Assembly (NCBI GenBank): GCA_002633005.1
Contig: NMRA01000720.1
Location: forward strand, 62,001-126,000
Reading direction: 5' to 3'
From: Phoronis australis
Lineage: Eukaryota > Animalia > Phoronida
Length of the DNA stretch: 64,000 nucleotides
Shown here: one piece after another, positions 3,601 through 64,000 of the stretch
Position numbering within the stretch: position 1 is the stretch's first letter
Layout of the letters: each line of letters begins with the position of its first letter
Notes under the pieces: model-generated
Database searches by the model: none
The model's input: the letters and a program-made list of their open reading frames with translations, nothing else
Told to the model about the DNA's origin: nothing
Position numbers and translations under genes: made by a program

Positions 3601-6600
3601 TTGGACTCTAATCAATTTTCTTTGTCAATGGATGAATTGAACCAAATCTGAACTTTTTGTACATGACAACCTTCCCCTTTGAAATTCAAACTCAGTCAGC
3701 TCTGGTTAGGAGAAATTTTTTTCTTCAAAACATACTGCGCAGATGCTCAGAGATTTTGGTAGGGGGTAAGTATCTTGTTTTTCAATACTTAGACCTACTT
3801 CTATTCAGAATATAAATAGTCACAACACAAAAGACCTCCTCCAAGCTATTGTGAATGACTGTGTTTACAATATACCCTACATGGTAACAATAAGGCAGTT
3901 TTAGTGAGGTTTGCACTTTCAACCAGAATGGACTATTTTCAGTGCTGGGGAGCTGAAGTTGTGAAAGACCTTTTCCACAAGTGCGAGAATTTAGCCAAAT
4001 ATGAACAGAAGTATAGAATTTAATTGGATAAATGCATACATTTTCTGCAAGTAGAAATCCTGCAGAATATGAGTTAAAGCTTTATATCAAGTTGAAATCT
4101 CAAAACGCCCATAACATTTTGTTTTCGCTTATGCAGCTTTTTCACAATTAAAACCGAACCACATGCAAAAGTGGGCCATTAAAACTACAAACAGCGTTTT
4201 GAAGAACAATTGCACAGAGTTAATTAGTGCAGTTTTTTATCTAACAGTTCAAGTCTGAAAAATCTACGACGTTGTGGGGGGGGAGGTGTATGAGGAGGTG
4301 AATAAAAAGATCGCTAACAGCTGGCTACGGGCATAGAACATCGGGCCTGGGGAATATCGAGCCACGGAAACATCGGGATAGAACACCGCAGCTATGAGGA
4401 GCATTGGGCCACAGGAATAGTAAAGCACCGACAGCTTAAACTTGCATAGTCGAGCCGATATACTCTTTTTGTTAGAACTGTCGCTGTTTTCTTTTGATGT
4501 GCGGCTTTGGAGGGAGTGGTGCGCACGTAAGTTCACACACTTGAGTCGCAGGAGTGCATGTTACATTGCTAGCAACATATGTGAGTGACGGGCGACTCAT
4601 ACCTACGCGCGTGCTCAGTTCCAGAAAGGGTTTGAGAATTTGTCTGCTGTCATGCCATAAAATACAACACGCATTTCCAAGTCGCGATCGTCTGCCGGGA
4701 CATTGCGCGTAAACAGCGGGACCGACCTGAGTGCCGCAGTGCGATGTTATCGGGGATATTGTAATAAAATATTCAGGACATCTTACATGGAAAATAATTT
4801 TTTTTTCCGTGAAAAGGTTGGTAAGTTGATCGATAAAGAATGAAACGTCACATATCTATGCCGTACTCCGAAATTTTCTTCAGTATATCGAAAAACTTGC
4901 AAAAGTAGTCGAAAACACTAGTCAACAAAACGCGTCAAAGATAGTTTCTGAATTATCCCGCGACATGTTTACAACTCATTGAAAAGGGCCGTCTCTGTTT
5001 GCGTTCATCTTGATTTGGCAACAACCAAATAACGGCCGGATTCGCACGATATGTTTGTTAGGCCAAAAACTGGGCTTGCTTACGTGGGAAATTCCAGGTC
5101 ACATGTTACGATACAAGATGACCAAAGTCTCGGCTCGTATTTGCAATCAGGTCACTAATGTGACCTGCAGCTCCTTATAGTAGAAATAATCTATTTAAAA
5201 GTCGGTGAGGTTTAACAATGAAACAGTATATAAAAAAATAATTGCAAGCGGTCTGATACACGTTGTACCAGACATGCACAGGCCTCGCATGTGGGCCCAT
5301 TACACTGACCACCTGGAAATATTTTTATGCTTTACTGATATTATAGTTAAAACCGAGCTGAGGAGCTAGAAACCTGGCTCAAGGGTTTAGCAGTGTGACC
5401 TGGTGGGACTTGAACCCACGACCTCGAGTAAAGAAAGCGGGCACTTATCAACCAGGCCACACTGCCTCCTCTTAAAATGAAACAGTAGCTCAAGTGCTAT
5501 TATCCGACAATTTTTTTTAAATCTACAAATGCAAACTACAAAAACTTAAAATACAAGCTAAGTGTACAGTAAAGAAAATATACAGAACTTTAAAATAAAT
5601 ACAAATTCATTTAAAGGACGTAATTGTCTCATTGCCGATGGCAATGAGTTCCATAGCAAAGCACCCTTATGGGAGATTGAGTTACACCCGTAAGTCACGG
5701 TATGAAAACATTTTACAGACAATTTTCACCTCCGATACCATATCTAGACTCTCTGTACAAACCATTTTTCCCTCAGACTCCATTGTACGGGCTCACTAGA
5801 CTCACTCCCAGTCAAAGTCATTAGTATTTTTTACATAAAATTTTAAGCAAATACTTGCTCTTAAGTAATGCTGTAAACTTTTGATTGACGACTGGCTTGT
5901 GTCCGCTTTTCTCCGATTCTTATCTTCATTACATAGCGTGTTTCACACAACGGCAAGTTAGCGGCGCTGGGAGTTCGAAATAAGACAGCCGATCTAGCTT
6001 ACTGTATGTTGACAATTCATCGAGTCACGGGGTATCGAGCATAAACACAAAAAACACACCTGAATTAGTTTTTCAAACATTTATTTCGTCAAACAACTTC
6101 CGTATTCGCCCAAAAAAGCGCCCACAGCGCTTAGAAAATTTCGCTTCGGGAAGCTGGAGGCGCTTATTATAGCCCAAAGTGGATGAAACGCGGTCTCCGA
6201 AATAGGTGAAAACGTAAGCTAGAATTCATCAAATTTACGCATCTGTAACCTATGATAGAGTTTCTACAAAATTGCAGTGCAATGCTATCAAAAATTGTTG
6301 TTAAATCACGAGCATTTTTTTAGAAAATCCCAGCGCGAAAACCCGCCGACTGATGCGTCACTGCCTCGCAATTGCCAATAGGTTAACTTAAAATTCATGA
6401 GTAAAAATATAGTTTCGACTCAACTAATTACCTGAAGTTATCCTTAACTTTTCAAAATAGCGTCCCTAACATTTTTAAGTTCCCATGGAGTCGGGATTTA
6501 CTCCATATTAAATCCATGTCTGCACTAAATCGTACTCTGCAACTTGAGAAAATCTCTGGACAAACACACATGTTGTTTTCACGTGATGTTTATTTGAAGT

Positions 6601-8559
6601 TCGTCTGCGTGTGTGAGTGAACGAGCGCGTGCGTGTCATCAGAGTTCATTTTCCAAAGTGAATGCGATGTAACGATCGGGAGATTCGGGGGTGTAAGGAT
6701 GCGGAAGTTTTCACTATCAGTTTGTCATTTTGACTTTAAAAACACCAATTACGATTAATATAATAATTCCTCCTAAAAATAACGCAAACGTTTTTACGAT
6801 AATAGAAACTTTCGGAAATAAGTGCCAGTATTGATTTCTTGCCAATGTTATGCTACCCCTTTCATGAATAGATAGTTCCTGAAGACTAATATTCGATGAC
6901 AGGTACTTGTATGTAGCGCGAGCTTCTTGGAGACGTACTTTTAACTAAGGTCAAGTTTTTCTTAGTCTTCGATTCGCGGTTTTCACATATGCAGAAAATT
7001 TGGATTCCTGTTGAGGTAGAAGATCTGTGCGGGAAGGATACTGTAATACCACAATCCCGTTGACAAGTACTCTCTGAAAGGCCAGACCATAATAGAACAG
7101 GCCCCTCGCAAGATCAGCAAAACTTTTACGTTCTTTTTAAAGCACGGCGGAAGTTTGGAGTGTATATTCACGGCTAATATCGACATAGCGGCGAAGCTCA
7201 AGGTCTACAAATTTCTCACACAATGAATTTTCTCAGGACTGTCCGTTCTTATTGATAAATTGAAGACGTTACTATACATTTTTTAAGCTGTAGGTAAGAC
7301 ATTTTACGGCGACCTTCATGCACTGGACGCTTATTTTAGCAGTCAGAAAACGCCAGGGGGCACTTACAGGGGCATGGGGGTTTATTAGAGCGAACTCGGT
7401 AGCTAATCTCTCCAACACGTGAAGCTTGCACGCGTGCACTTATGCACTGTTGCCACGTGAGAATTAGTAACAATCCAAGTGGAGCGCTGCATGGTCACTT
7501 GTCGTCTGCGCACTATAGTCGGTTGTCAATGGGCAAGAAAATAGTTCTCATTCAATTCCATAAATTGCGAAATAAGTAACAGCTTCTTGGCTCTGTTACA
7601 CAAAAGTAACATATCAAGTTTTAGGTATCTTCAGAATAAAATTTTCTGTTTTCTTGGTGCTTTAACCGACCATTTTTGTAAACTGAATGGGACCGCATCA
7701 CATGCGCATTAATTTACGGCTTCTGTGGTGCAATATTTTATGAATCGGGAAGTTATGCATCAAATTTCACCGTTTGAATGCAAACAGAGATGTTTTTGAT
7801 CAACAATTTTAATGGTATACATGAAATTAAGAATAAAGGGTTAAATTTTTTAGTATGACAATCTCGTTTTCTGCAAACACCGGTTTATCGTTCAGAAATC
7901 AGGTAATCCCAAGCTGGTATGGTGGCTGACTCACAATAGCTCTATTCATGAGCGACCGGCTGTAATAAGGGGTTAGTCGGGGGCGCTTTCTGACCACGCT
8001 GACCCTTATGAAACATATTCCAAGCAGGAGATATTCTTTCGGCGTCTACGCCCCTGTCTTGAAAATGAAAACAGTTCTGCAGAGATGGGTATAATACCTT
8101 TGATAAAAAGTGTACCACTACCATGAAAGAAAAGAATAATTAAGTAGATTTTAATACTGACGTTTGTCTTTTTACTTTAATACTATTTGACCTTACTTTT
8201 TGAACAGTGATAATGGATCGGCCTTTAAGAACCTATTTTGGTTGATGTCCTCTTAGTGAAACCGGCCGTCATGGTTTTGGAAGCGTGAGAATAGAATTGC
8301 CAGAAACTGAGATCTCATCTATCGAGTCGGAAGTTTCGATTCGAGGAGAGTACTGTTCTGCATTTATCTGTGTTCTACATATTCAAAAGGCACTTTACGG
8401 AGACATTTTGATATTTTCATCAAATCTGATAACACACCTGAAAACAGCCAAACACGTTGAAGGGTAACCATACAACTTTCCAAGTAGAACTGGCGAAAGA
8501 GTTTGTAAATAAGTTAGTAAATCGCTGCAGTTCAGTTTCACACCACCGGCGGTCGCCAT
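629..8559 (-). CDS. GTF2H4: General transcription factor IIH subunit 4 (TFIIH p52/Tfb2), first 4 coding exons; gene continues beyond the left edge
   Basis: Minus-strand GT-AG exons 8559-8438, 3064-2960, 1363-1232 and 722-629 splice in consistent phase. They give MATAGGVKLNCSDLLTYLQTLSPVLLGKLYGYPSTCLAVFR-ELPELCKLFIMRMLFIEQPISKQVAVSWLSTPHHR-EYVVASDKLSDLHIWQTAQIGGGISGWSLHSAFRRSMKTAFLGG-EKSSAAQPDLGVDKHAKGVDFLNSYALERWE. This matches the p52 N-terminus (TCLAVFRELP..MRMLF.EQP, LG.DKHA, YA.ERWE). Confidence 0.95.
5235..5469 (-). mobile_element. tRNA-derived SINE, copy 1 (in GTF2H4 intron 1)
   Basis: The - strand head GGAGGCAGTGTGGCCTGGTTGATAAG...GGGTTCAAGTCCCACC has A-box and B-box-like motifs. The body (CCCTTGAG..AGG.TTCTAGCT..TCAGCTCGGTTTTAA) is shared with 24746-24983. 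Confidence 0.7.
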
Positions 8560-8866: not shown

Positions 8867-11800
8867 ATGTCGAACACTATTTTTTCGTCAGGAAAATGTA
8901 ACAGAATCAAAGATATACTAATAACCATTAACAAGAAAATAACCGACGGTGAAACTCACCTACAGATATGGCGGTGTCTTAGTTCGGCGTCTTCAACCGG
9001 CGACACTTCAGGTTTACGAGCGCAACAACATTCGCAAGAAAATGCAGCGAGGAGAGTGGCACAGCGCCAAGCTAATTTGGAGAAGAAAAAACAAAAAGAG
9101 GCGAAGCGACTTGAGATGATTGAGAGGACGAAACTTAAAGAGCAGAAAGCAAGAGGAATTCAGGTAATTTCAGTTTTAGACTGCTCTCCACCAGCAACTA
9201 ACACTTAGGGGAAGTTGGGGTGAATTCCGACGAAACCACCCAGTAGGGAGGACGTTTTTTTTTAAATACCCATGTGTCATACATTTTTGAAAAGCCCTTG
9301 GTGTGAGAAATGAAATTCTACAAAAAATCAGAATAATTGGATGAGCGGTTAACTAGAAAACGGCCGTTGAAACGCAACGATTATGCGTAAAATATCTGCC
9401 TACATAATTTCGTAAAAAAATAAAAGAATATACATGTGCTGCATATAAAAAGATTAGTCTCATTGAGACAAACATGGTGGTGTGTATAATATAAAATTTG
9501 CATCGATTTCTATAAAGATATTGCTGTTTAAGTGTGCTGTTAGCATATAGAACAGGCCCATCATGTTAATGGTGTAGTAATAGCCGAGATCACCCGATTC
9601 GGGAATCGAACCAGCGACCCCTATAAAACTGGCAAGCGTGCTATCCATTCAGCTAATAGGCAATTGCCCGTTAGCGAGTAGCTAACAGAGGCTCATATAA
9701 TTCACCGGAAGCACATCTACAACATTCCCCCCTTCCCTACGGAACGGGCACGCGACTAGGAAGGTGAACACCAGGATGTCTCGCATACAGGTCATCAACG
9801 TCCCTTGGTACCTTTACCACCACAACACAGTTGAACACAAGGTAATCTCTCATACAGGTCCTTGCCGACTCCTGGAACCTTCCACGCGCGCCGTCCCGAG
9901 GTCTGTGGGTACTAGTTGGCAGTGCTTCATCGGGATCATCCGTTTGCCAACTACGCCATTTGTAGTAATAGCCAAGATCACCCGACTCGGGAGTCGAACC
10001 CGGGACCCCCATAAAACTGGCAAGCGTGCTAACCATTCAGCTAATAGGCAATTGCCAGTTAGCGAGTAGCTAACAGAGGCTCATTTAATTCACCGGAAGC
10101 ACATCTACAACATTGGATCACACAGCTTAAAAGGTAAAGATCAAAGACAGCTCAGAAATAAATACATCTGAGCTAGGAGGAAATTTCACATCAAATCACA
10201 AGATCACCTGGGTGGATTTGGGGGAGGGCAAGGGGGCCAGCGTGTGGCCTCCCTAAAACTCCCAGATTTCATTTGGCAGTTTGAGGGTGCAAATATCTTA
10301 GGTAAAATCCTGCGTAATACTCTGCCCTGCCCTCCCTCTCCTATCTAAAAATCCAGATCTGCCCCTGAATACTACTACATGGGCAACACATCATTGCCTG
10401 GGGGCTGGGGGAGGCTATAGCTCCCCCACTTTTTTCAGTGCTGGGTGCAACTCATGTACTATTAGATCGTATCATGGCAAACAACAACAGAAACTAGACA
10501 AAAGACCATTTGGGAAATCAAATCACTCTTAACATTTCATCATTTACGCAACAAAAACTTTGTAACAACTTTATTTCAAATGGTGAAGTTGCGATGCCAT
10601 TATTATTAAAATCTCTTGGTCTATTTACACCGACCTCTAGTCTATATACACTGTGACAGTGTATATAGACTAGCAATTCGTGTGCAGCCCGCATAATAGG
10701 CAATTATATCACCCTGGGGCCCGTTCCAAGAAACTGACTTAAGTTCATTTTTGACTTAAGTCTAAGATTTGTCTCAAATTCCGAACTTTAAAACTTCTAC
10801 ATTTGATAAGATAGTCCAAATTAAGACAAAACTTAAGTAAAAAACTTAAGTCGAACATAATATCTCTTTTTTGAAATGATCTTGACACAGATTTAACATA
10901 TCCATGAAAATCTGTGGCGGTTTTCTCGAATTTCTATTACCGGATGACATTTTGAGTTAGTTACGTAAAATTACGCATGTTGAATAAAAATGTCTACAGA
11001 CATAAATCTTACAAATTTCACCCGACATCTTTCAAGTATCGCGCACCAGCGTCACGCACTTTGCTCAGTCTCGTGCTAGCCATTGCCTAACACCTGACTC
11101 AGCTGAATTATTTTGTGGTTGCCGTGCGCGCGGTGAAGATGTTAACAGTGACCAAAAAGTGGAGTTGGGATTCTTCGTCAAACTCATTCTCAATTTCTCA
11201 CAGCTGTGCTTCATCAAAGATATGTGTAGATGCAGAAAGGATCACTGAAGAAAATAAGCGCTTTTTTAAGTGATGGTTTTAAGTGTAGGATGTATTTTTG
11301 ACGTGGTGAAAACTCTTAATTGGTAAGTGGATTTCTCTTATCACCCACACAGGACCGCGACGAAATTTATACAGATAGTGATGGGAAGCATTGTAGCCCC
11401 TAACTGGCCAACCAAGGGGCTGGCTGTTGTCTACACGCATGGTAAACAGCGCCATTGTTGTTGACAAATTAGGTTGTGAATTGACCTCTGTCAGAAGGTC
11501 ATCATGTGAGTACAAAAATCTCTCAAGGAAGCATCAAGAAGAGCGTCCAGCAGCCTAAAAGCATGGTGTCCGCATTTCCCTGCAGCTTACAAAAAGTTGG
11601 ACTCCCATTTTTTGAGTAAATCATGCTCAATGTCTTAATGAGTTAGACGGTGATTTTGAGTGACTGCTAGGACACCTTGAGGCACAGTGATTTTGATTGG
11701 CTGATATGGCTTCTGATTGGCTGATGTGCCTTCTGATTGGTTGATATAGCTTCTTGTTTCTCATGCCCTACTAGTACCTTGTAAAATTTTTGCCTGTGAA

Positions 11801-17800: not shown

Positions 17801-20800
17801 TTTCTTAGTGGATGATTACTTAACTGTATATAATAGAAATTGTTCCAAGAGTGGTGTGACACCTACATAACACAAACTATGCTAGCAATATGTTAATGAG
17901 CTTCAAGCATCCAGCATACTACGAACAAAAGTATTTAAGACGTAGCAGACAAAATCGCTAACCTTGTTATCAATTTCATCCTCCACTGTTAGGCGGTCAG
18001 TTTTCATGTTTAGTCTTTCTGTAAGCCTAAATGCCTTAGGCTATGATGTTTTTGTCATAAGTTTTCATCCCACCTATATATTAGGCAGTTGATCCCATAT
18101 TCAATTTCATTACATCTGATTATGTCACTTGCCATGGCTATGATATTTCAAAGCAACATATTTTAACCACACTCACCAGTACATACCCAGATTTGATATC
18201 TTGTTGCTGTGATCATTAATCAGTTTACTTATCCCCATCAACAGAGTCATCTGATTGGCTTGTTCCTTTTCTAAGTCCGTCTGCTTTTTCTTCAAGACTG
18301 CCTGGTCCTGAATTTGACCCTGCAGTTGCTTGATGTCCAGATTCTGATGATCCACTTTCAGCTGCAGTTTCACGAGTTCTAGTTCTAAATTGTTAAATTT
18401 GTTAACTTTTGACTGAAGTGTCTGGAGATCTGTCTGTATGTTGCGCAACTCGCCATCTTTACGTTGGAGTTCGTTTACCTGTAGATGAGAAATTTTAACA
18501 TTAACTGTCTCATAATAGCATTTGACCTTGAATTTGGTCTTTAATTATTATTTGATAGTGGAATGTTGCTTTGCTGATCATTTTTTTTGCATTTTTAAAA
18601 ACTGCCCAGTCCATTTTATACACAGTGTAGTTATAGTCGCACCATTTCACATTTTGAGATTAGTTTTCTCCGTTACGAACTCTCTAAATACGATACCCTA
18701 TATTGACTTTTGTTTAAAAAACCACATGCGCTGTTTTAAGAAACATGATGAAGGCAAAAACTGACCATGTTCCAATCTTGAGAATAAAGATAATTTAATT
18801 TTGGTCTGACCTCTGCTGGAAAATTTTTACTGAAAATGTTGAACTTGTCACTATTGGGCTATCCCTATACCACTGCATTTATGACCATATATTCTTTTGT
18901 TCTTGTAAAGTACTGCAAAAACAAGCTATAACTGTTAGGTGTAAACACTTTATTTCTTTGGAACTCTGTAAGCTGCAGTGGTGTCTGATAACATACAAAC
19001 ATATCCAACAAATACTTCACAGTCTTACCATGAGTTGCAACTGTGGTTCTACTTTGTTGACTTCCTTCTCGATGAGCTCAACTTTTGTCCTCAATGCTGT
19101 ACAACAAGATGTCGACGGTGTTGGTGGTGGCGATGTGGAGGTGGGAATCCGTTTTGATGGTGCGATAACGTCGATTGCCAAGGTGATTGTGACAACTGAC
19201 ACCAGCCCTACTAGTACAGAACATTGTATTTTGAGAGTCATCTTGCTTCAATCTTGACAATCCTTTGCCTTTCCTTGATATCCCAGAATGTTATATAATG
19301 TAGACCAGTCTTACACTGTGCCCAGCACTATTGACTGATACTGTTGATAACTCTTTCTATTGGTGGGTCTGGCCAACTCAGGAATTCTGTTTACATTTGC
19401 AACAATTTCAATGAGATAAATTTGAGTAAAAAATTTTAGATTATTTGGCGCAGCGCGTTGCTTTGATACCTGATCTCAATTACCACATCCTTGGTATTTA
19501 GGTGGAGGTATATTGTTATGGTGGTCCACTATATACTGATGTCTAGTTGTGACTATGTTATTCTCGGTTCATGACTAACCAATGCTGAGGCTCATTGAGA
19601 CTCCTGGAAACAAAACTTTTAAAATCGTCCATTGTTGATTTATTTTGCATAAAAGTAAACGTTTTCTGGTATTAAAAGCGTCGCTTGGGAAATGTCCTTG
19701 GTGTGTTCCTTAGAACAAATTTCTTTGGAAATAAAACAATGTCACTCAACCCTGATACTTGCATACACTTGTTGATTCAGGCCCCCATTGCAGTGATTGG
19801 TCAGCAAGTGGTTGGAATGGTGAGCTATTGGGTGCAGTGAAATATACTGCCCCTTTCTCAAGAGTGCTCACAAATATCTTGCCAATGTGTTACCTATTGC
19901 AGGCATGTACGAAAGTATTCTGTAGTTACGTTGAAAAATCATCAGTTTGAGACACTGTATGACGGACGACTGAAATTTTGTTTCGTCATATTTCTCAGCA
20001 AAAATAATTTTCAGAAAAATTTAGTTTGGTTTTTACATGATTTGGGTGGCGTAGTTAATACTATCCAACATGAGGTAAACTTAAGTTTTGAGCATTTTCA
20101 GCAATGTGGAAAACCTTTGAAAAGAGAAATAATGCAATTTTAGCAATTATTTTTGTCCTTAATTGAAGAGCTTTTGAAATTCATAATTCATACTTTTAGT
20201 TTATGTAACACAGGTGTAAAATGCTTTGGAATGTTTTTTTAGCACCATAGAACAGTTTACCCTGCATGCTTAATATATTACACGACAAAAAGTTGAGTTT
20301 TGATCAGCATGTTAAAACTCAAAATATCCCACTTGACTTGTTAACATTGAGCAATGTTGATAGTACAGATGTCACAAATGTAATTAAAACAATTTTAATG
20401 ACAATTTGTGTTAGGGTAGTCAGGAGGTACATTATGGTAGTTGAGAGGTAAGTAAGTTGAAGCCTAGTATCATTGCAGTGTTTTGTGGTTTTTGAAGGGT
20501 TAATTTTGTGTATTAAACAAGGAAAAAATTGTTTCAAAAATGTCGGCTGTGTACAGCGTTGCTCATTCATAGTGATGGCATTTCTCTACTTCGAAGTGCG
20601 GTGCTTTGAAGTTAGAAGGGGGAGAAGTTTAGATTGTAAGAACGCTCCTTTTCCAAGAGTAGTTAATGATTAGTGATAAATTTACTAGACTAACACCTGA
20701 TACTTTCAGAGTGGACAACATTTGGTGCAATATACAGCCAAAACAGAACCAGGTGCTAAAAAAGGTAATGTCTCGTCATTTCATCATCTTTCCTTTGAGC

Positions 20801-23800
20801 GTTAAGAGGCCCTTTCATATTGACTTAACTCCAGTATGAGCAGAGCGTCGACGTAAACAGCGCAGTTAACTGGACTGTTCATACTGGCTTCGGTAGTTAA
20901 TGAACATCAAAGTAAGCGGTTGTGTGCCGCTGTCGTCATTGAAGTTATCGCAAAGTAGCGTTGCACGCTAAGATTTTTTCAATGTTTCAATTTGGAAATA
21001 TTTACATGCACTAAGTATAGATTAGATTTGTTAGAGATTCCATCAACCCATAGTCATCTCCACCTGACTGTTGTTATATCTACCTTCCTCTGATAAGCTC
21101 CTGCTGGAATTTAATAATAGCCAAATTAATGCTAAAAATACCTGAGTTATGAAGTTACCTGAGTTATGAAGTTAATTGACAATGTTGTGGATTGGTGTAA
21201 ACAAGTTTTGTACTTTGAACAGAGTTGCCAACGGTTACGGATTTATCTGTAATCTACATACCTTAAAGGCCTAAAATTGCTTCATGCGGATTTTTAAATG
21301 TTTTGGACATTGACCATTTCTTTCTATTAAAAAATCACTTGTAAGTCAGTAAAAAGATTTCTTTGAATTTCATAATGGTTGGAAGTGACAGATTGGCGAG
21401 AATAGACAAATAGAGTATCATTAAGTGGTAGAAATAATTGAGAACACACGATCCAGCAGAGTAGTCGTATATAATGCAATTTGCATACAAAATTTCCCTT
21501 TTGTGATTAGTAAGTTGCAATTACTTTCTTAAGGACTTGTCAAATATTAATGTGCACACTGCTTAGTGCATTGTGGGTAGTGCATTGTGAGATATCGAAT
21601 GCTTTGGAAATAAGTGCTGAAGTCGAGAGTGAAATTTCGGAAGACGAGTTTACCGAGGCATTAGTTTAGAAAAAGGGAAAAAGGATTCACCACATTTGGT
21701 ATGGTCACTTCAAGACTGATAACCTTGGTAATAACGACATAAGCATGGATGAGAAATTATAAGATGTCGAGATTTTTGGGGTCCTGTCAACCTTAGCCTG
21801 TGTAGAAATTGAAAACTGTTGTTTTGGTGTATATCAATCTGCCATGCGGTTGAAATTTAGGCAGATATTAACACAAAGGTTACAATATGTTCTAAATGGG
21901 TTGTAAGCCGTGTTACAAAGTGAAAATATTTTTAGTCTGCTTTTTACAGTGTTCTTTCGTTTTTATTTTTTCCTCCAAATCCTTACAAGCAGCATATTGT
22001 GTTCTTGCGGGGGTGTGTTGTATCTCCAAACTACGTCAGATCTCTGAATGTGCAACCGTATGAAGTCCCGATGCGTTCCTTTGACTGTCCTTTTGTTAAC
22101 CCTGCTTTTTTCTAGACGTGAGCTGTCCCCTACCAGATGCCTATCACCCACAGTTTGTTGAGGCAGCCTGGTATGATTGGTGGACACAGTCAGGCTTCTT
22201 CAAACCTCGACCAATGGTAGGACTCAGTGATAATGATTGGCAGTGACTGTTTTGTAAAGTATCATTTGTTGTCTATCATTTTACTACTTCAGTTGAGCAA
22301 AGCTTGCGAGGAAGTATTGTTTGTTTGTGAGGCAGACTTAAATTGACTTTAAAGGCAAGTATGTGGATGAATTTTTATGAAATTTACTGCGTAGGAATTT
22401 ATCCAAAATTCAAATCAAAAGCATAAAAATATAATTTTGAATGAATACATTTCATCCTTTGCATTCACAGATAAATTGGAGTGGTTACCATAAATTATCA
22501 TCTTCTTATAATGGTGGCTGAAACCTATCATGAAATGTATTGGACATCCTGATGAACCTGTTTAGAGACGTTAATTTAATGATTTTGAATTATGTCAAGC
22601 CTTACAAATGCCCTGTTACACTAATACCTGTCTTGCAGATACCTGTTATAGAATGTTATGGTAATTAGCACCATCTCCATGACAACACAAATATTGTTAT
22701 CTGTTGTAAAAGTATTCTTAGAGGTAAGAGATTTTCCCATCATTTTACAATTTTTGCATTGGTCCTTTGCAGGAAGACACAGAGGAGACGTTTGTGCTCT
22801 GTCTGCCACCCCCTAATGTTACAGGTAAACTTCACCTGGGCCACGCTCTCACTGCTGCCGTGCAGGACTCTATTGTTAGGTGGTGAGTACAAGTCAGCTC
22901 AGGTTTTGCCTTGGCTAATGTGGGCCTGATATTACTAAGTATTTGTCAACAATTCTCTGGCCATGCTGTGGGGTCAAAGGTTATTATATGGTGTGTATTG
23001 AGAAGAACATGAGCATGTTTGAAGCTCTCTTTCATTCGTGTCACTCCCTTTAAGTTTCCTGTTATAATAATGCCATCTGTAATACCTGTCATGGGCAAGA
23101 TCATTGGGGATATGCTGGTGCATTTATATCCTCCCCCAGACCATCCCCGTGACAGCAGAAGGCGCAGAACTCCAGGGCTGACGTTGCCTGTTAGCATTTG
23201 ATTTGACAACACTCGGCCACGGCTCGTCTTGTGACTCTTAGAAGCATGGCCATAAATAATACCGGCTTCGAGCAGTCGGCTGCCATCATTGAACTCAGCC
23301 AGTCGAGACGAAGTCTGCTCAAGGGTGCGTTTGTGGGCCAACAGCTTAACTTCAGCCGAATATAAGTAGAGGGGTTGGTTGGTGGTGCATGAGCCAGCGA
23401 TTTAATCTGCACGCTCATTAATCAAGTCACCGGCTAGCCAGGTACGAAAGACGAGATCACTGCATGATGAGGGTGGCATGATCGGAGATCGGAAGACACC
23501 CAAGTTGGCTGAGAAGTTTCCAGATTGAACTTTCATCAACACTGCCATGGAATTGGTGGCAAAGATAATGGTGTGATTCTCCAGGTCAAGGAGTGACAGC
23601 TTAGTTAGGGCACGTTGTATAGCCTCAAACTCCAGCCGCGTACTGCTTGTGTATACATGGTGGCAGCCTCTGCCTTCCGCAATGACGTTGTTGGCACAGT
23701 GTTTGATAACCCCATCCCACACGATTAGTTTCACCATCGAAGGATCCATCAGTTGCTACAGTGATGGCATTAATACCGCCAAGATCACGCCATTGCTGAC

Positions 23801-26800
23801 GGCACAATGCTTAGGCTGCTCCAGGAGGCCATTCCCGAGCTTCCCTGTTGAAAGCAATGGTGACATTCGGTTTCTCACCGAGTTCTTGCATTGGCAGCTA
23901 AGCAGCATCTTGCGCGATCATGTGTTCGCCGATGAGACCCATGGTTGCGTTAACAGCAGCGACAGTCCACGAGCACCTGCTAAGTCTTTGGTGGGAGGCA
24001 TTGCAAAAAGGTCTAAGACGAAGTCGATAAGTTTCTGTTGCAAGGACGGGGTTCAAGCACCTGTCAAGTGCAGTCTTCACTTGACTGTGTAACGGATGGA
24101 AGGGACTTTGAACAGCCCAGTTTCCTGTTATGTTGAAGTGTAATTTTGTTCAAATTGTCTACGTACGTCTGTTCAGTACCTCTCTTTGTCTTCTTTTCAC
24201 TTACTCCTAGTGACCTGTGGGACATTAGTTATAACTGACTGTTCTAATGTAAGGACGTTAAAATTTACAAAGTGACATTTGCACATTAATGGTCTCAACT
24301 GCTTTGATGTCTTGCAGAGTCTTATCCTGTAAATATCTCAATATTTATTGTTGACCTCCCGTTCTTGCAGTCCCCTGAAGATGTCCTTCTTTTCAACTCC
24401 ATAATCCATTGAATACTGAGTCTAGTCCTGCATAAGAGACAATCAGACACACTCTTATTACTCTAGCGCCACCTTGTGGTTGATTTGATTGAAGGAGATA
24501 TAAGATTGTCTTGTGCCTGATGGTGTCCTGGTTCACGTGGCAGATCTAGTCTATCCTGAAAACAAAATATTTCCTTGCAAATTAAAGCACTCCCCATGTT
24601 TTGTTTCTCAACTCTTGCAAACTCTGACTCCAGCTGATGGACAAGTAGTACGAATTTTTAAAAAATTGAAATCAGTCTTCTTTTTTGAATCTTAGAACTT
24701 CGTAAAACTAAACATGAATCTAAATTTAATTTAATTCATTCTTGTGGAGGCACTGTGGCCTAGTGGGATAACTGTCTGCTTCCTTTAATTGAGTTTGTGG
24801 GTTTGAGTCCCACTGGGACACACTGCTAGACCCTTGAGTCAGGTCTCTAGCTTTTCAGCTCGGTTTTAAATTTATGTTGAGAAAGTATAAAATGGTTCCA
24901 TGATCAGTGCAATGGGTCCATTTCAACAGCTTGCGCACATCTGGTAGCACATCTACCATGATGCTGTCGGCAGTTACTTTTTTCGTAATTCATTCTGACT
25001 GTATGTGGAGCGGCATGTACTTTTCTCAGTCAGAACAACCTTTTTCACTTGGTTATCAAATTTTCAGATGTCACATCATTCTCTTAGTTAGCTTGCAATG
25101 TTGTTAAGGCATATGGTGACTCCTGTGAGACACTTGACTAAGGTTGTCTGAATTTATCTTCCATGTTAGGTATCGCATGCATGGTCGAACCGTCCTGTGG
25201 AACCCCGGCTGTGATCATGCTGGGATAGCTACGCAGGTGGTCGTGGAGCGAAGGGTCCGTAATGAGCAGAATATGTCTCGATGGGAACTGGGCCGTGAGA
25301 AGTTTGTAGAAGAAGTGTGGAGATGGAGGAATGAGTATGTGTAACAAAGGAAGTCAAGTTTTAGTCATAAAATGAGGTTTGGAGTGTAGACCTTCCCCAA
25401 GCAAAATTTGAAAATTAGATGTAATTGCTTGCAGTTTGTTCATTATAAACAATACCTGAACCCCAGTATCATGTAGTGGAAGTATCTGGGTAAAGAACAC
25501 TTCGCAAGACAAATTGGCAATGAAGTGTACGGCACAGTGTGATCTCTGTCACTCTTTAGTACTAAAAACAGTGTTAAAATTCAATTATCTCTGAAGTGAC
25601 AACCATCGAACAAAAATATGTGAACTTTGTAGATGTAATAAACTAATTCGTGTAACGAAACTTGCGTTCATATCGTCTTGCTAAACATACATCAGTGATA
25701 GTGCATTGGCGTTGGCCGGCGACGGCATAGCAGATGATGTATAATCCAGTCCATGCAGACGAATCTGAGTCTGCCTCCCGTTCAGTAACGCTAGGACCTA
25801 GCTTAAAAGCAAGACTTCGCGAGATTACGCGAGATATTGCCATGTATTTTAAATAAAAACACGTGACCTTGACTAGCTTTTGGCTAGGTCCTAGCATAGG
25901 TCCTAGCGTCTACTGAACGCACGCCCGGTTAACATTCAATATCGTTATTTTGGTGCAGGGCTATGATTGATTAAACAGTTGGATGTCACGCCTTACAGTA
26001 TAATTTTCAATGTCTTCTGTAAACTCGGACACGATAAAATGAATGAAGAAGAAATCTTACTGTTTCTTACTTCATTTGCAAGCCCTGGCGCTTTCCTATT
26101 TTAGAAAATTGGTATCGAGGTCGTTGCCTGGTCCCCGGCTGTATTAAGTTTTTGTGCATTGTTGGATAACCAGGCAGAAATGAGGTAGGAAAGGGGATTG
26201 GGGATTGAATGATTGTGTTTAACAGGGCACAATTCAAGATCCCAGTGTAAAATTATTCTTTTTTCCTTTCGATCCACAAACGGCGAAAGATGCCGTGTGA
26301 CTTGTACTTACGGTATAATTCATTATTACCAGCGATCATTATACTAGTGATCATTTTTACTAGCGATCATTTTTACTAACGATCATTTTTACTAGCGATC
26401 ATTTTTACTAGCGATCATTTTTACTAGCGATCATTTTTACTCATAGCAATCATTTTTACTAGCGATCATTTTTACTACCAATTTTTGCGTGGCGGTGAAG
26501 TTTCCCCATCATGATTAGGTGTGTGACGGTCAATTTGAGTATTGTTTACGAGTGGTGGGGCCAAAAGGGAGCGTGGCGGGCCACCCAGAAGTTTACACAC
26601 AGGGAAACCCTGTTACGTTATACAAGACAAGTCCAAGACATTTGCAGCCAACAATCTTTGCCCTTGGAACATAAACCAGGAATCTGTTCTCCCATAATTC
26701 CAGTGTTGCCGGCCAATCATAAATTCAATGGCTACAATTTTGCTTTTGTAAGCAAGTTAAGTTTCAAGCTTTCGTGTCTTTCAGTCGCGTGATTCAGTAT

Positions 26801-29800: not shown

Positions 29801-32800
29801 TAGCGGAGTAGAGGCTAACCCCTTGACTATAGCTGTCTGCAGGTATGTAGTAGTGAGCTGGGGGGTGCCACTATTGGCTGGTCACACGGGAATATGCTAC
29901 TTAACAAGGAACATGCTAGGAACATGCAAATATTATTACATTCTTTAAACATATCTATTCTGTAGATTATGACATTGACTAGAGAGGCCAGAAATTCACT
30001 TCTTTCACTCTAGTCATGTTGGCAATGAAAGTTGATGATTTCACCCTGACATAGTTGTGCCATGTCTTTTTCTGAACCTCTTCTCTCTTCAGTCAATCCT
30101 ATTTTCAGTCAATCCTATTTTCAGTCGTTCCGGTGATGTGATTGAGCCCCTCATTAAGTCTCAGTGGTTTGTCAACTGTCAACAGATGGCAACACAGGCT
30201 TTACAGGTGAGAGGCTGGTACAAAAGATTGAGATGATTTGGTTGGATGTCCTCTCTTGATAGTCAGCGTTTGCTTACAAAACATATTAATCATAATGAAA
30301 AAGTTGTAAAACTAAATTCATTACACATAACTGCCAATATTTAAAATGAAAAAGTAAGATGTCTGGATCTAGGCCTTACTGCTGAAACATACCAATGGTG
30401 TTTTTTGATTTAGTCATACTGTCTTGTGAAATGGAATAGAGAAATAGGGTACGGTGTGTCTTGCCAGGGAAGTAGGGGTGTGTTGTGTGGAGAGGTACGT
30501 GATTATGCCACTGTGCAGGGTTGGTGTGTAAATTTTGGCTGGTGTTTCACAAAGCGGGGTATTGTGATGCTGTGGTAGGACTTCGAAATGATGGTTCTCA
30601 TTAAGACTTTTTGTTGTGTTCTTGTTATGATTAACATAGTTGGGTGTCATTGCAGGCTGTTGACAGTGGTGAACTGAGTTTGATACCCAAGAACTATGAG
30701 GCTCAATGGTGTGAATGGCTGTCTAATATACAGTAGGTACAGCTTGAAAGTGATGCCACCTGTTGGTATTCACACTAGACAATTTTTTATAATATGTATT
30801 CCTTACTATTTAGAAGATTTTTCAAATATAATTTTACTAGCGAGTGTCAGTGGCGGATCCATGGTTTTGAGTTAGAGGGGACGGGGCCGAGTATTAGCCT
30901 GGATTTTGCCCATCGGACATTAGTACCCTCGATGAAATCTGGGAGACTTTTAGGGGCGGAGCTTGGCCATCTTGGCCCCACTCTAAATCTGCCACTGAGT
31001 GCAGTCTGTGTTAATTTCAAATATGCCTATTTTGAGACAAGCAGTTGTTGCAGCGCCACCTAATGGGTTCTTTGGGACTTAAGGTAGTTCAGTTCTTAGT
31101 CCACAATCTTGAATTCAAAAGCCTTCGTTTGTATGTTGCAAGATAGTGTTGTGTAGGGACACCGCAGATGGAATTACGAGCTGAGTTGTCTGTCTTACGA
31201 AAATTACCTCAAGTCATTGTCACTGCACACAGCGAGGCAAAGTTCTCGCTGTACTGTGAGCTGTAACTGTTACTTTGTAGTGAACGGAGCAAATATAGTA
31301 CACATGGTTGCATTGAGCGAGTGAGAGATTTGTTGTCAGATGATGCAATGATAAAGTTTGTTTGGCTTTCTAAACACATGTCTCGGTTCGCCTGCCTGCT
31401 GTGAGGATTTACACTTGTCACATAAATATGCAAATAGTGACACATGTGCTTCCAAGCTTATCAAAGCAAAGTCGTCTCGGGTCATTTTGACATAAAACAA
31501 GAGTTCAGCTCATTTTCGTTTGAGCCGTTTATCTTTCTTTCTGCGATGGGCCTTAAAATCATCTGCAGTAAGTTGAAGTGATTGAAGTACACAGTACCTT
31601 CAAAATCGTGACACAGCTTGAGGGCTTTTCTGCTTCCTTATATTGAGATGTAGTTTGTCGCTAAGAATCTATTATAAGAGTCAGTAAGGAAACTTTAAAA
31701 ATCTAGAGATCAGAAGTCTATTTAAAGAAAAAAAAAACATCCAAATTCAATTTACTCGCTATCCCGACTGTTTGAAAAACTCTTTTTGTGTCGTCGTTGT
31801 ACAGTTGCAGTAAAAATCAAAATAGGTTATAACTTGGACTACTACAGCCTTGTTTTTATTGACATCAGTTGTTCTTTGTCATGTGTCATTTACTTACAGA
31901 GACTGGTGTATATCCCGGCAACTGTGGTGGGGTCATCGCATCCCGGCCTATCGGGCTCAGTTTGTTGATGGTGCTGCCCCCGTGTGGGTGGCTGCTGGAA
32001 GTCAAGAAGAGGCTGTCGAAAAGCTATGCCGTCAACGGGGTATTTCGCCTGATGGGGTAGTCAGTGTAACTCGAGGTGTGTTGTATCGCGAGCAGAAAAT
32101 TAGCCAATCAAAGTTGAGAGATCAATACTAAGTCTTATGTCTGATCATGTTGATTTTTTCGATTTCTTTGGAAAGCATGGACAACCTTCCTGTCTGATAT
32201 TAAAGTTTTTGGTATCTGTAGTAAACTATTAGCTAGTAGGTACTATTACTCAAGAATAGTGAACAGAATGATGTGGTCATTCATCTTCAGGGAGTTGGAA
32301 ATTCTGAGTTTGTTGGCAGGCTGTGAACAGTGAAGTAATGTACACTTGGATCGTTGTGCTCGACACTGTACGCATGCAAGTAAGGAATGGCGTGTGAACA
32401 TTATGGGCACTTGTTTTTGTGTGCGTGATTAAAGTGGCAGTAATTTTCGACACGTTCACAGTCTTTAGAAAGTCTCTGTTTTGTGTGATTTTGGTTAAAA
32501 TGTTTCTACTGTTAAGAATCCCAAAGTTTATTCCTTCAACTATTTTCTCTCTCATGGAATGCAGTGCTTGGAAATAATACACATTTTCATTATAATAATA
32601 TACATTTGGTGTTACAACGGGAAATTCAATACTACGTTTAGCTCTCCAGAACTGATGTCGTAGTTGGAATGATTGTTTGTATTCCAGATGAAGATGTCCT
32701 TGACACATGGTTCTCATCTTCCTTTTTTCCCTTCGCCATGCTTGGCTGGCCTCAACAGGTGATTTATTACTGCGTTATTCCAGGATAAGTAAAAATCTGA

Positions 32801-35800
32801 CTTCTTAATTTTACTCTTTTCGACCATTTTATGTTGCACCACCAGAAATCCAAGTTATATTCTTTAGAGCACCATCTTTGAAAACAATTGTTTTGATTCA
32901 TGGTTTGAGATAGAATGTTTTGTTTTTGTTTCATTTTTTTACGGCGACTTGACTTGTACGTTAATCACACATAGCAATAGAATTGATGAGTTAAAGTTAA
33001 CTGGTTGGTCAAGTTGGATTATCACTGCTATCTTGATTCATTCCGACCAGTTTGAAGTCCGCGATCATTTCAGTTTGACCTCATTTGCACTGATTGGCTC
33101 CTTTAGAGTTCTTAGAAAATTTGGATTTTGTTCATTTTGTAAAATTGTCATTGATATTGGAGTGACATGGTTTGGGAATGAATGTGAGCTAACTTGCTTT
33201 GCGTTCCAATTTTTCCTGGAAATAAAACCGATAGTACATGCATCAACCCTTTACATCCCCTCTAGGACTGTCTCACAATGGCCAACCCTTTACATCCCCT
33301 CTAGGACTGTCTCACAATGGCCATGTGATGGGCTGTTGATGCTTGTTCATTTGATTAATTGTTACCTTATGGGATAGCTACTTTATAAATAACCGACTGT
33401 TGCAAGATTGAAAAATTTTACACGATAAAGTATTTCACATAGCTGCTGTGCACCTCAACTGATATCTTAAGTAGTATTTCGAAGTGCATAATTATTGGGG
33501 TCATTTTGTGACTATTTTGTTTTTTCTTTAGACAATGGACCTTCAGAGGTTCTACCCCACTTCATTGTTGGAGACAGGAGGAGACATTTTGTTTTTCTGG
33601 GTCGCTCGAATGGTCATGATGGGTTTGAAGCTCACTGGAACTCTCCCGTTTAAGGAGGTATGTTTCGTGGTATCTGAAGTGTCTTGTCATTTGATAAAGC
33701 AGTATGAATGAATAGAAATTTGAATCCGAGTTTTTTGGCCTATTTAAAGCCACGTACTAAATTTGAATGTCCTTCCAAGTAAAAGCTTGTGGGTTCGAAT
33801 TTGGGAAAATCTGGAAATAGGGGTGTTTGGTTTATGCACGAGTTGGGCCCGGACTCTAATCTTTTTACTCGAAATGGAACTCGAAATTAGGTTTGGCATT
33901 TTCTACTCTACTTTTGGGCGAACTCAAGATAAGTTTCTATTATTCTATGCTCGAGTACACAATAACTTACGTAGATAATTTATTGCCCTTAGTTCACAGT
34001 TTGTAAACCCAATATTAAAGCAATAAGTTCGAGTTTGAACTCGAAATTTCGAGTTTTTACTCGAGTTTGTAGCATGAATATAAGGGTCTTCAAGGGCAAA
34101 CCTGAACTAGAAACTCCTATGCATTAACTATAATGTATTCGAGCACAGTCTGATAACCAATTATCTTAAGTTCGCTCAAAAGGAGCAGAGAAATTGCCAA
34201 AAATAGTTTCGAGTTTGTTTCAAGTACGAAGATTAGAGACCGGGCCTTGGCCTGTGTATGTTCATTCACAATACATTTTGTATTTTTTCCTGTGGCTCAC
34301 AAGAATGAATTAATGTACCGAATCATCGCCATTACTTGATTACAAAATAGCAAAACAAAACTTCATCAATTTAATTCACAAAGAGTAACATTTCTGTAAA
34401 TGGAACAGTCCACTATGAGGTATGGCTCTAAGGATCAAAATGAAGTGAGGTCACATGGGCTGTAGGTCATAAATGGTTGTCAAGAAGCAGACTGTCTGTG
34501 ACTATTGGCGCCAGAGTTAGCAGGCCTGCACTTTCTAACTCTATAGAGCAACGTTTTACCACTCAGTGGTAATCCATTTGCAAGAAGTCATCACTCATTC
34601 CTGCCACCGTAGCTAAGCTTTTGTACTTTTATAATTACATTCCATAGAATCTTTGTCATCAGCTCTCACTTGAAGGGTCCTTATCACCATTCTGTCATAT
34701 GCATGTTGTTTTTGCAGGAATAATTTTACCCTACGTCATGACATCAAGTTCTACTGACCATCCCACTTCATTCGTTTGCATATACTGTATGTATGTAGTA
34801 TTCATTGCTGTCATATTTCTCTCACATCATTCTCTTATGTGTACTGTAGGTGTGCAGGACTTTAATCGGTCTCACTAAATATCACGTCTGCTTCCTTTTG
34901 TGAATATTAAGTTCCTTACAAAGGGACTTTGTTCTTTGCACAGTTAACAGTGGTTAATGTTGAGTGCATTAGAAATGATGAACCATTGTTCAGATAAGTC
35001 GTGAAGGGGAAACCATTGTGTTTGGTTGTTTTAGTGAATAATTAGACGATAGATAGGTCAAAATATTTCCATGACGATGGTAATGTTCAGACTTCAGTGA
35101 GCGCACAGACTGAGAAATGTTCACTCAACAGTTTACAGGTTGAGACCTCTTCCTATTGTTGGTTCAGAATTTAAACATCAGTCTCAAAAAATGGGGCAGT
35201 AAGGTGGCCTGCTGTGCTAAAAACCCCTGATGAGAACGCCGTGGTCACTTCTGTTGATACTATGTATACAGCACTGCTTATAGCTTTCTCTTTCAGGTGC
35301 TGTAGGTTTGCTGTTGTCAATAGAGCTGTTATTATGTATTCCCAACACACTCTTCTCATTCCAGTACAGCATTCTCTTGTAAGTGCTGAATGTTTGCAGC
35401 AAGTGACTGTGCCAGAATCATGAATTCTGCCACCTTTTTCGTATCGTCACCAGCAGGCATCTCTGATTTAACTGTGGTCAAATCCTTCTTTAAGTTATCC
35501 ACCATTTTGGTCAAGGAGTTGCTATAGAAGATAGCTGATGCACATTTTTTAATCATGGCCTTGACCTTGGGTTTATCCGTCTGCTTCTCCACTTTTGGTT
35601 TGGCTGTCATAACTTTCATCACCGCATCTTCAATGCTTGGCCTTTCTGGACCTTGACCCTCTTTCTTGACCTTGAATCGTTTGACTTCCCTTTTAAGGTG
35701 CCTTAGTCGTATGCTGAGTTCCGCTGTTGGGTTTTCCCCAAGGTTCAACGCGTTAACCTTGGACTCAAGATCTTTGATTGAATTCTTCACAGTCTTCAAA

Positions 35801-63893: not shown

Positions 63894-64000
63894 CTGGAAG
63901 TGAATGGAATCAAAATTTAGATATTCAATATTCAATATTCAATATTCAATACAAACAAGTCAGGTACTGACATCCAATAGTGCAGCCAAACACGACATTT

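What the first reader, a model, noticed from the sequence alone, without database searches (positions are those of the whole stretch)
9573..10112. Miniature LTR retroelement whose LTRs contain a tRNA-like Pol III promoter
Seen: 152-bp LTRs about 94% identical, a PBS, a PPT, a 236-bp interior with no retroviral coding motif, and a 3/4-matching 4-bp TSD. On the sense (-) strand each LTR has an A box TAGCTGAATGG (10043-10033), a D-arm-like GCT..AGC stem, a CTTGCCA segment like a Gly-GCC anticodon loop, and a T arm/B box CGGGTTCGACTCCCG (about 10002-9988). The PBS matches the tRNA-Ser 3' end (TGGCGTAGTCGGCA) at 13/14 by recall. Established: Cassandra TRIMs carry 5S-derived LTRs; Helenus-type TRIMs carry tRNA-like LTRs, with 4-bp TSDs in animals. 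Inference: a SINE-like, Pol III-driven LTR parasite, possibly a new family, lying about 400 bp into VARS2 intron 1 near the bidirectional promoter. Caveat: a TTTT run between the boxes could terminate Pol III.
Basis: partly seen in the sequence, partly recalled or inferred. Interest (0 to 1): 0.75.

Follow-up and report, generated by a model that had tools for sequence, protein, structure and literature searches.

The report
Helenus mini-retrotransposon with self-pairing LTRs
A 540-base, gene-less, multi-copy jumping element with tRNA-type promoter boxes in both end repeats sits in an invertebrate gene; it is a new family of the Helenus type described in 2024, likely copied by RNA polymerase III, and its repeats hold a long inverted repeat that is predicted to pair the RNA's ends or to decide where transcription stops.

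Summary
The element is real: 152-bp LTRs (143/152 identical), tRNA-Ser primer site, PPT, 236-bp non-coding interior. Laid sequencing runs show at least about 50 other insertions ending exactly at the LTR termini, 4-bp target duplications, and no common variant in box A, the box B core or the TTTT. Most copies repair the primer-site mismatch. It meets every sequence criterion of animal Helenus TRIMs (Kojima 2024); its primer site is absent from the published set. This scan has noted Helenus-type elements on other genomes before. Corrections: the Gly-GCC loop and the perfect T arm are copy-specific; there is no tRNA fold; the copy is nested in an older repeat; 'VARS2 intron 1' is plausible, not shown. 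New: LTR 31-59 is complementary to the box A/D-arm (64-91), ending 5 nt before the TTTT; family variants mostly keep the pairing (p about 0.02). By eye, about 54 of 76 published non-insect animal Helenus LTRs share this layout, with compensatory changes in fish; the paper's text does not mention it. Likely role: end-to-end pairing and/or termination only in the 3' LTR. Pol III transcription, RNA ends, partner element and host phylum remain untested.

The parts
9961..10112 (-). 5' LTR, 152 bp, TG..CA
   Evidence: loose ends of 48 contigs at 10112 with flank agreement 0.35
9573..9724 (-). 3' LTR, 152 bp, 143/152 identical to 5' LTR
   Evidence: loose ends of 42 and 38 contigs at 9573 and 54 and 44 at 9724 in X1, X2
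9945..9958 (-). Primer-binding site for the 3' end of tRNA-Ser, 2 nt after the 5' LTR
   Evidence: 13/14 in this copy; majority letter at 9949 gives 14/14
9725..9738 (-). Polypurine tract, 14 purines abutting the 3' LTR
   Evidence: same end seen in loose ends at 10114
10033..10043 (-). Box A, 5' LTR (LTR 70-80)
   Evidence: 0 variants at >=10%
9645..9655 (-). Box A, 3' LTR
9990..10000 (-). Box B, 5' LTR (LTR 113-123); only the two degenerate positions 120-121 vary in the family
9602..9612 (-). Box B, 3' LTR
10013..10016 (-). TTTT between the boxes, 5' LTR (LTR 97-100); predicted leaky Pol III stop
9625..9628 (-). TTTT, 3' LTR; predicted RNA 3' end
   Evidence: function inferred
10022..10082 (-). 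Inverted repeat in 5' LTR: arm 10082-10054 (LTR 31-59) complementary to arm 10049-10022 (LTR 64-91, box A and D-arm), loop AATT
   Evidence: -25.3 kcal/mol, z -3.4, 0 of 500 shuffles; variant test p about 0.02
9634..9694 (-). Same inverted repeat in 3' LTR (arms 9694-9666 and 9661-9634)
   Evidence: -22.1 kcal/mol, z -1.9, 19 of 500 shuffles
9762..9881 (-). Two 53-bp internal direct repeats (9762-9814, 9829-9881), 74% identical; role unknown, possibly packaging
   Evidence: majority letters at 9831 and 9845 make them more alike
9569..9572 (+). Left target-site copy ATGG
10113..10116 (+). Right target-site copy TTGG
9255..9572 (.). Left part of an older high-copy repeat into which the TRIM inserted
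   Evidence: depth and joints 9563>10114, 9564>10148, 9557>10148
10113..10244 (.). Right part of that host repeat (right end approximate)

Best explanation
This is one copy of a multi-copy, gene-less LTR retrotransposon of the animal Helenus type that is likely transcribed by RNA polymerase III from boxes A and B of its 5' LTR and is predicted to be primed by tRNA-Ser and moved by an unidentified Gypsy element. Shown: structure, many insertions, 4-bp TSDs, solo LTRs in host transcripts, conservation of boxes, TTTT and primer site (membership about 0.9). Inferred (about 0.7): Pol III starts a few bases before box A (LTR about 57-63), passes the weak TTTT of the 5' LTR, crosses an interior free of T-runs and stops at the TTTT of the 3' LTR, giving an RNA of about 430 nt with a repeat R of about 40 nt. 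Inferred (about 0.4): the U3 segment LTR 31-59, transcribed only at the 3' end, is complementary to LTR 64-91; it would either fold locally into a long hairpin 5 nt before the 3' TTTT and so make that stop work only there, or pair with the RNA's own 5' end to close a panhandle that places the two R copies together for strand transfer, or both.
For: Exact LTR-end junctions with unrelated flanks in 42-54 contigs per end (X1) and 38-44 (X2), 48. Matching 4-mers on both sides: CTTC in X6 and X7, GGGC in X8, and majority CTAT/CTAT in X1; 5-mers do not match. 24 of 152 LTR positions vary at >=10% in at least 1 of 4 runs, 0 of them in the 24 positions of box A, box B core and TTTT (Fisher p=0.011). 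PBS majority 14/14. The only T>=3 runs on the sense strand are the two TTTT; 384 nt between them without TTT occurs in 0.5% of 5,000 shuffles; the antisense strand has four TTT. Long hairpin LTR 31-91; 8 of 9 observed variant letters in it keep or add a pair or are unpaired, mean ddG 0.0 against 1.9 for all 183 substitutions, p=0.019 (0.014 without box A; antisense control p=0.11). A modelled RNA from LTR 57 to the 3' TTTT folds with z -3.0, 0 of 100 shuffles, 5' end paired to the 3' LTR. Human Pol III reads through short U-tracts unless a hairpin lies within <20 nt upstream (10.1101/2020.09.11.294140, abstract and section 7). Published animal Helenus share the layout (by eye).
Against: No transcript start or end was seen: one search lists no pile-up, only two of 5 molecules, neither at the predicted places; 68-78% of laid RNA reads run on into unlike sequence, i.e. 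mostly host read-through. The interior alone lacks TTT in 11% of shuffles and the 384 nt lack TTTT in 50%, so T-avoidance is modest. If the start is at LTR 57 the 5' transcript also forms a -10 kcal/mol structure ending 2 nt before the 5' TTTT, which weakens the conditional-stop idea; it needs a start at 60-63 (-4 kcal/mol). The small stem plus palindrome alone are not significantly more conserved than non-motif positions (p=0.17). The ddG test is biased because one variant (56G) is the family majority, 1 of 9 variants breaks a pair, and RNA counts are dominated by a few expressed loci. The panhandle z-score partly reflects the LTR duplication. No partner element was searched (no genome held).
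Confidence: 0.72

Rival explanations
1. It is a Helenus family, but the TTTT is read through in both LTRs (or the RNA is made by Pol II or by read-through from neighbours), and the inverted repeat is only a relic of how the tRNA-like piece entered the LTR.
For: Most RNA reads are host read-through; Cassandra arrays are transcribed through intervening LTRs (PMC7215508 passage); Kojima states that Pol III activity of Helenus is unvalidated.
Against: Boxes and TTTT are invariant while 24 other positions vary; compensatory changes across fish families argue for selection on pairing (by eye); an inherited relic would be expected to decay.
Confidence: 0.2
2. It is an internal-deletion derivative of an ordinary autonomous LTR element whose LTR happens to contain a SINE insertion.
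For: Copies with other or shorter interiors exist (joints 9728>9935, 9840>9933); an autonomous relative could not be searched for.
Against: The tRNA-like part has no SINE body, tail or TSD of its own and ends 30 nt from the LTR end; the window's own tRNA-derived SINE (5292-5469, 24746-24920) has a different head; the part is present across LTR-covering reads and carries the Helenus layout.
Confidence: 0.05
3. The LTR encodes a functional tRNA (Gly-GCC) or a self-cleaving ribozyme (retrozyme-like).
For: Box spacing is tRNA-like; earlier scan notes report twister ribozymes in similar LTRs (unchecked).
Against: No cloverleaf; anticodon and T stems are not kept in the family; no ribozyme family at E<=10 over 9000-10700; only 30 nt follow box B in the LTR.
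Confidence: 0.03

Closest known systems
Animal Helenus TRIMs (TRIMp3), Kojima 2024, PMC10886601 (read main text parts 1-4 and 6 of 6; supplement parts 1, 5, 6, 7, 10, 11 of 11, plus one search of the whole file)
   Same: Two LTRs with tRNA-like boxes (TRGCY, YGG, GGTTC), PBS to a tRNA 3' end, PPT, no coding, under 1000 bp, 4-bp TSD, solo LTRs, no functional tRNA. By eye about 54 of 76 non-insect animal families carry the same inverted-repeat layout before box A. The mussel tRNA-Ser-primed families (Helenus-2_MyGa, -2_MoPh, -2_LimFor; LTR 141-156, interior 226-268) are closest in size.
   Different: PBS TGGCGTAG is not at the start of any published interior (4 hits in the file, all fungal and near the PPT); no published LTR holds this box A 11-mer; TTTT lies between the boxes; by eye no clear interior homology; host may be outside the six listed animal phyla (unresolved).
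Cassandra (5S-type TRIMp3); seen through PMC10886601 and passages of PMC7215508; the 2008 original was not held
   Same: Pol III promoter inside the LTR, short R (18 bp for Cassandra), LTRs predicted to pair with each other in a super-hairpin.
   Different: 5S type-1 promoter, plants, tRNA-Met-type PBS; no sequence relation tested here.
Ty1 CYC5/CYC3 cyclization and PAL dimerization signals (PMC7969010 passages)
   Same: Functional analogy: 5'-3' pairing and palindromes in an LTR-retrotransposon RNA.
   Different: Autonomous Pol II element; its pairing sites are not a reverse copy of a promoter region.
tRNA-derived SINEs (SINE2)
   Same: Internal A/B box promoter.
   Different: No tail or LINE-like 3' end; LTR, PBS, PPT and short fixed TSD point to integrase, not target-primed reverse transcription.

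Membership tests
Helenus (animal) | Two LTRs with TG..CA ends, element under 1000 bp (published range 311-1263) | tested here: met
   540 bp, 152-bp LTRs; ends confirmed by junctions
Helenus (animal) | No protein coding | tested here: met
   Six-frame translation; 0 Pfam families for the 99- and 122-aa frames
Helenus (animal) | [quoted passage not shown] | tested here: met
   0 of 20 box positions variable at >=10%
Helenus (animal) | PBS complementary to a tRNA 3' end | tested here: met
   13/14 here, 14/14 in most copies, against human tRNA-Ser; the host's own tRNA was not available
Helenus (animal) | PPT next to the 3' LTR | tested here: met
   14 purines, 9738-9725
Helenus (animal) | 4-bp TSD | tested here: met
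   3/4 at this copy; 4/4 at two expressed loci (pairing of the two ends inferred) and in the X1 flank majority
Helenus (animal) | Interspersed multi-copy family | tested here: met
   38-54 junction contigs per end; X1 and X2 are one sample and may be the window's source; RNA runs are a second study
Helenus (animal) | tRNA-like part not a functional tRNA | tested here: met
Helenus (animal) | Gypsy partner with the same PBS | not testable with these tools
   No genome held
TRIMp3 | Transcription by Pol III from the LTR | tested here: inconclusive
   No start/end pile-ups in ordinary RNA-seq; unvalidated for published Helenus too
Cassandra / Ajax | 5S rRNA-derived LTR segment | tested here: not met
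   No 5S hit at E<=10
Retrozyme | Self-cleaving ribozyme in the LTR | tested here: not met
   No ribozyme family at E<=10; a divergent ribozyme outside Rfam models is not excluded

The most novel reading that the evidence does not exclude
A large part of animal Helenus (fish, coelacanth, many bivalves, nemerteans and this host) is one ancient lineage built on a reverse copy of its own promoter region placed in U3, which solves the Pol III LTR problem: it exists only at the RNA's 3' end, where it turns a weak T-run into a stop and pairs with the 5' end for strand transfer. This contradicts the published view of multiple independent origins for these hosts and gives a compact, directly testable model of how a Pol III RNA of about 430 nt rides an LTR machinery.
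Probability: 0.33. Interest if true: 0.68.

Novelty: new member of a known kind. Interest (0 to 1): 0.45.

Why it matters
Helenus was described in 2024 from sequence alone, and how Pol III can pass a terminator in the first LTR yet stop in the identical second LTR is open. This family offers a simple testable design (one conserved TTTT, a T-free interior, a U3 arm complementary to the promoter region), and the same layout appears in most published non-insect animal families without being mentioned in the paper's text. As an element it is an ordinary new family; the shared inverted repeat is what a specialist would want to follow up.

Tried and rejected
No whole genome is held, so no genome-wide count, tandem-array search or partner search. 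No second copy in the window. A 21-nt LTR pattern gave 2 matches in metagenome contigs, both chance (27 and 21 nt only), and 0 in viral contigs. No look-alike stretch among earlier scan findings by sequence. Run search: no indexed RNA holder listed; three raw RNA runs were laid instead. Summed contig depth was not used as copy number (the tool warns against it). Element-sense skew of interior reads (X8 24-31 against 2-5 at the PBS; weak in X6 and X7) is uncalibrated and not counted as evidence. Joints that 'go back' reflect reads mapping to the other LTR, not tandem arrays. First idea of a small 6-bp hairpin plus a separate 10-bp palindrome (78 of 20,000 shuffles) was replaced by one long inverted repeat: the small hairpin has probability 0 in full-length folds starting at LTR 50-57 and lies 42 nt from the TTTT. 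Gly-GCC origin rejected; a Gln-like D loop is a recalled resemblance only and was not tested. Host placement: ValRS exon search gave at best 62-76% identity spread over many groups; the Tfb2 exon search found nothing; the GPCPD1 tree lacked molluscs, nemerteans and deuterostomes. The 2008 Cassandra paper was not held. Paper searches for 'TRIMp3' (1 relevant of 9), helenus+trim+trna and TRIM+tRNA-derived+annelid (0) showed no follow-up describing the inverted repeat; subscription papers, Repbase entries and the paper's figures were not seen, nor supplement parts 2-4, 8, 9 other than through one search.

Full report
Observation. The element is present as described on the - strand: LTRs at 9961-10112 and 9573-9724, 152 bp, 143 of 152 identical, 236-bp interior, flanks matching at 3 of 4. 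Box A and box B occur together only at these two places in the window, in 7 of 20,000 shuffles of the LTR. The PBS matches 13 of 14 letters of a human tRNA-Ser antisense template printed in PMC3299991 (one passage read). A 14-purine tract abuts the 3' LTR. The two longest frames hit no Pfam family. There is no tRNA fold: ARAGORN finds none, Rfam at E<=10 finds only a 15-nt T-arm match, and isolated LTR folds are not better than shuffles (z -1.2 and -1.4).

It is a family. No genome is held, so I laid public runs on the locus (two DNA contig sets of one sample and two RNA runs; one DNA set and three RNA runs). The DNA sample may be the window's source; the RNA runs are a second study. Loose ends with unrelated flanks pile up exactly at the LTR termini: 42 and 54 contigs in X1, 38 and 44 in X2, 48 (flank agreement 0.35-0.38). 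This gives at least about 50 junctions; alleles may be counted twice and most rows of the loose-end tables were not shown. Two abundant RNA loci have the same four letters on both sides (CTTC in X6 and X7; GGGC in X8) and not the same five; that both ends belong to one locus is inferred from their joint abundance per run. In X8 the depth falls from 160-270 in the LTR to 2-5 at the PBS on that read direction, so these are solo LTRs inside host transcripts. The X1 flank majority also reads the same 4-mer on both sides. The TSD is therefore 4 bp.

What the family keeps. One search lists every difference at 10% or more (27 rows, none hidden): 24 of 152 LTR positions vary, 8 of them at CpG. None falls in box A (11 nt), the box B core (9 nt) or the TTTT (4 nt) (Fisher p=0.011); within box B only the two degenerate positions vary. 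The PBS mismatch is repaired in most copies (X1 depth 11,251 of 11,934; RNA 29 of 40, 32 of 44, 25 of 32). Reads had to be 80% alike, and RNA counts are weighted by a few expressed loci.

Setting. Both flanks are themselves a high-copy repeat: depth rises from 51 to thousands at 9255, and joints 9563>10114 (X1, X2) and 9564>10148 (X1; 9 reads in X6, 3 in X7) skip the element. The TRIM is thus nested in an older repeat; those joints are other copies of that repeat, not a proven empty allele. Valyl-tRNA synthetase exons run from 22115 to about 51000 on +; a putative first exon 8867-9163 ends at a GT 409 bp before the element but matches homologues only weakly (E=0.047), and mitochondrial versus cytosolic type was not tested. 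A Tfb2 (GTF2H4) first exon starts at 8559 on - (E=0.0024, under the curated cut-off), so the head-to-head arrangement is plausible. The element is antisense to the synthetase gene; nothing links it to that promoter. A GPCPD1 tree groups the host with Owenia and one unnamed protein (96/89), but held no mollusc, nemertean or deuterostome: a spiralian host is likely, the phylum is open.

Membership. Kojima 2024 (PMC10886601; for text; 17, 20, 24, 26-28, 55 for supplement) defines Helenus as TRIMs with tRNA-derived LTR sequence, TRGCY/YGG and GGTTC boxes, PBS, PPT and, in animals, 4-bp TSDs and a presumed Gypsy partner. Every sequence criterion is met. No published interior begins with this PBS, so the family is new relative to that data set; Repbase was not seen. 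This scan has 46 notes with Helenus-type wording in at least 13 genomes, one in a probable annelid (unchecked).

The inverted repeat. LTR 31-59 is complementary to LTR 64-91, which holds box A and the D-arm; the loop is AATT at 60-63 and the stem ends 5 nt before the TTTT: -25.3 kcal/mol (0 of 500 shuffles) for the 5' LTR sequence and -22.1 (19 of 500) for the 3'. Of 9 variant letters in this span, 8 keep a pair, add one or are unpaired, and 1 (seen at 10% in X8 only) breaks a pair; mean ddG 0.0 against 1.9, p=0.019, antisense control p=0.11. One of the improving letters is the family majority, which biases the test. By eye, about 54 of 76 non-insect animal LTRs have a short palindrome directly before the TTAGC of box A with an upstream complementary arm in most (18 of 18 chordate, 33 of 51 bivalve, 3 of 3 nemertean, 0 of 3 brachiopod, 0 of 1 ctenophore); the letters differ while self-complementarity stays. 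In the fish families the third pair of the outer helix is T-A in LTR-11_DR, A-T in Helenus-1_CCa and -1_CaAu, and G-C in -1B_GobGob; two others carry mismatches there. About 38 of these 54 lack a T4 after box B, against 2 of the other 22; most instead have TTT or TTTT right after the palindrome. These are hand counts on related families, not independent events, and insect and fungal families were not scored. The paper's main text has 0 hits for 'palindrom' or 'hairpin'; figures were not seen. A like idea exists for Cassandra, whose LTRs are predicted to pair in a super-hairpin (PMC7215508 passages).

Likely mechanism. Inferred: Pol III starts just before box A, near the loop. The sense strand has no T-run but the two TTTT (384 nt between them without TTT: 0.5% of shuffles; interior alone 11%). 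A Pol III LTR element must pass the first stop and use the second. Human Pol III ignores short U-tracts unless a hairpin lies within 20 nt upstream (10.1101/2020.09.11.294140, abstract and section 7), and partial termination is common (PMC3141230, abstract). The upstream arm lies before the presumed start, so it is transcribed only in the 3' LTR, where it could complete the hairpin beside the TTTT. Alternatively it pairs with the RNA's own 5' end (-27 kcal/mol duplex; about 18 of the first 20 nt paired in folds starting at 57), as the Ty1 cyclization sites do (PMC7969010 passages). Against: a start at 57 also gives a -10 kcal/mol structure before the first TTTT, and no RNA start or end was seen. 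tRNA-Ser priming, PPT priming and integration with a 4-bp stagger by a Gypsy partner follow from the family's anatomy and the published inference, not from a test here.

Verdict. A confirmed new family of a known, recently described kind. The conserved inverted repeat is the part worth pursuing; it is predicted, moderately supported, and cheap to test. Interest 0.45.

Noticed in passing
window 9255-9572 and 10113-about 10244: High-copy repeat that hosts the TRIM; this copy differs from most others at many positions. Loose-end letters at its left end include TTAA, which recalls Kolobok/piggyBac-type targets (recalled label, not tested).
   Followed up: partly
window about 10245-10472: Further high-copy short repeats follow directly; related pieces at 30847-30955 and 51410-51451.
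   Followed up: no
window 5292-5469 (-) and 24746-24920 (+): Two copies (79% identical) of a tRNA-derived SINE-like element with A and B boxes; head unlike the TRIM's.
   Followed up: partly
window 8437-8559 (-) and 8867-9163 (+): GTF2H4/Tfb2-like and valyl-tRNA synthetase genes head to head, start codons about 307 bp apart; these two genes are neighbours in human too (recalled).
   Followed up: partly
window 35356-42571 (-): Ankyrin-repeat gene(s) nested on the opposite strand in a roughly 15-kb intron of the synthetase gene (33660-48333).
   Followed up: no
window 18173-19257 (-): Coiled-coil frame (123 aa, no Pfam hit) and a nearby cysteine-rich stretch on the opposite strand, possibly another nested gene.
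   Followed up: no
window 22946-23755 (-): Decayed frames that look by eye like a LINE RNase H region; no Pfam hit at E 0.1.
   Followed up: no
window 9961-10112 against 9573-9724: The 9 LTR differences are 4 transitions and 5 transversions, 6 of them in LTR 101-152; at position 112 the two LTRs carry the two common family letters, so 5.9% may overstate the age (template switch or conversion).
   Followed up: partly
window 10637-10673: Perfect 18-bp inverted repeat with a 1-nt spacer.
   Followed up: no
window 57833-63898 (-): GPCPD1-like glycerophosphodiesterase gene, at least 8 exons.
   Followed up: partly
run X8, LTR ends: A solo LTR with a GGGC duplication is abundant in X8 RNA and not among the listed loose ends of X6 or X7: an insertion polymorphism or tissue-specific host transcript.
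   Followed up: no
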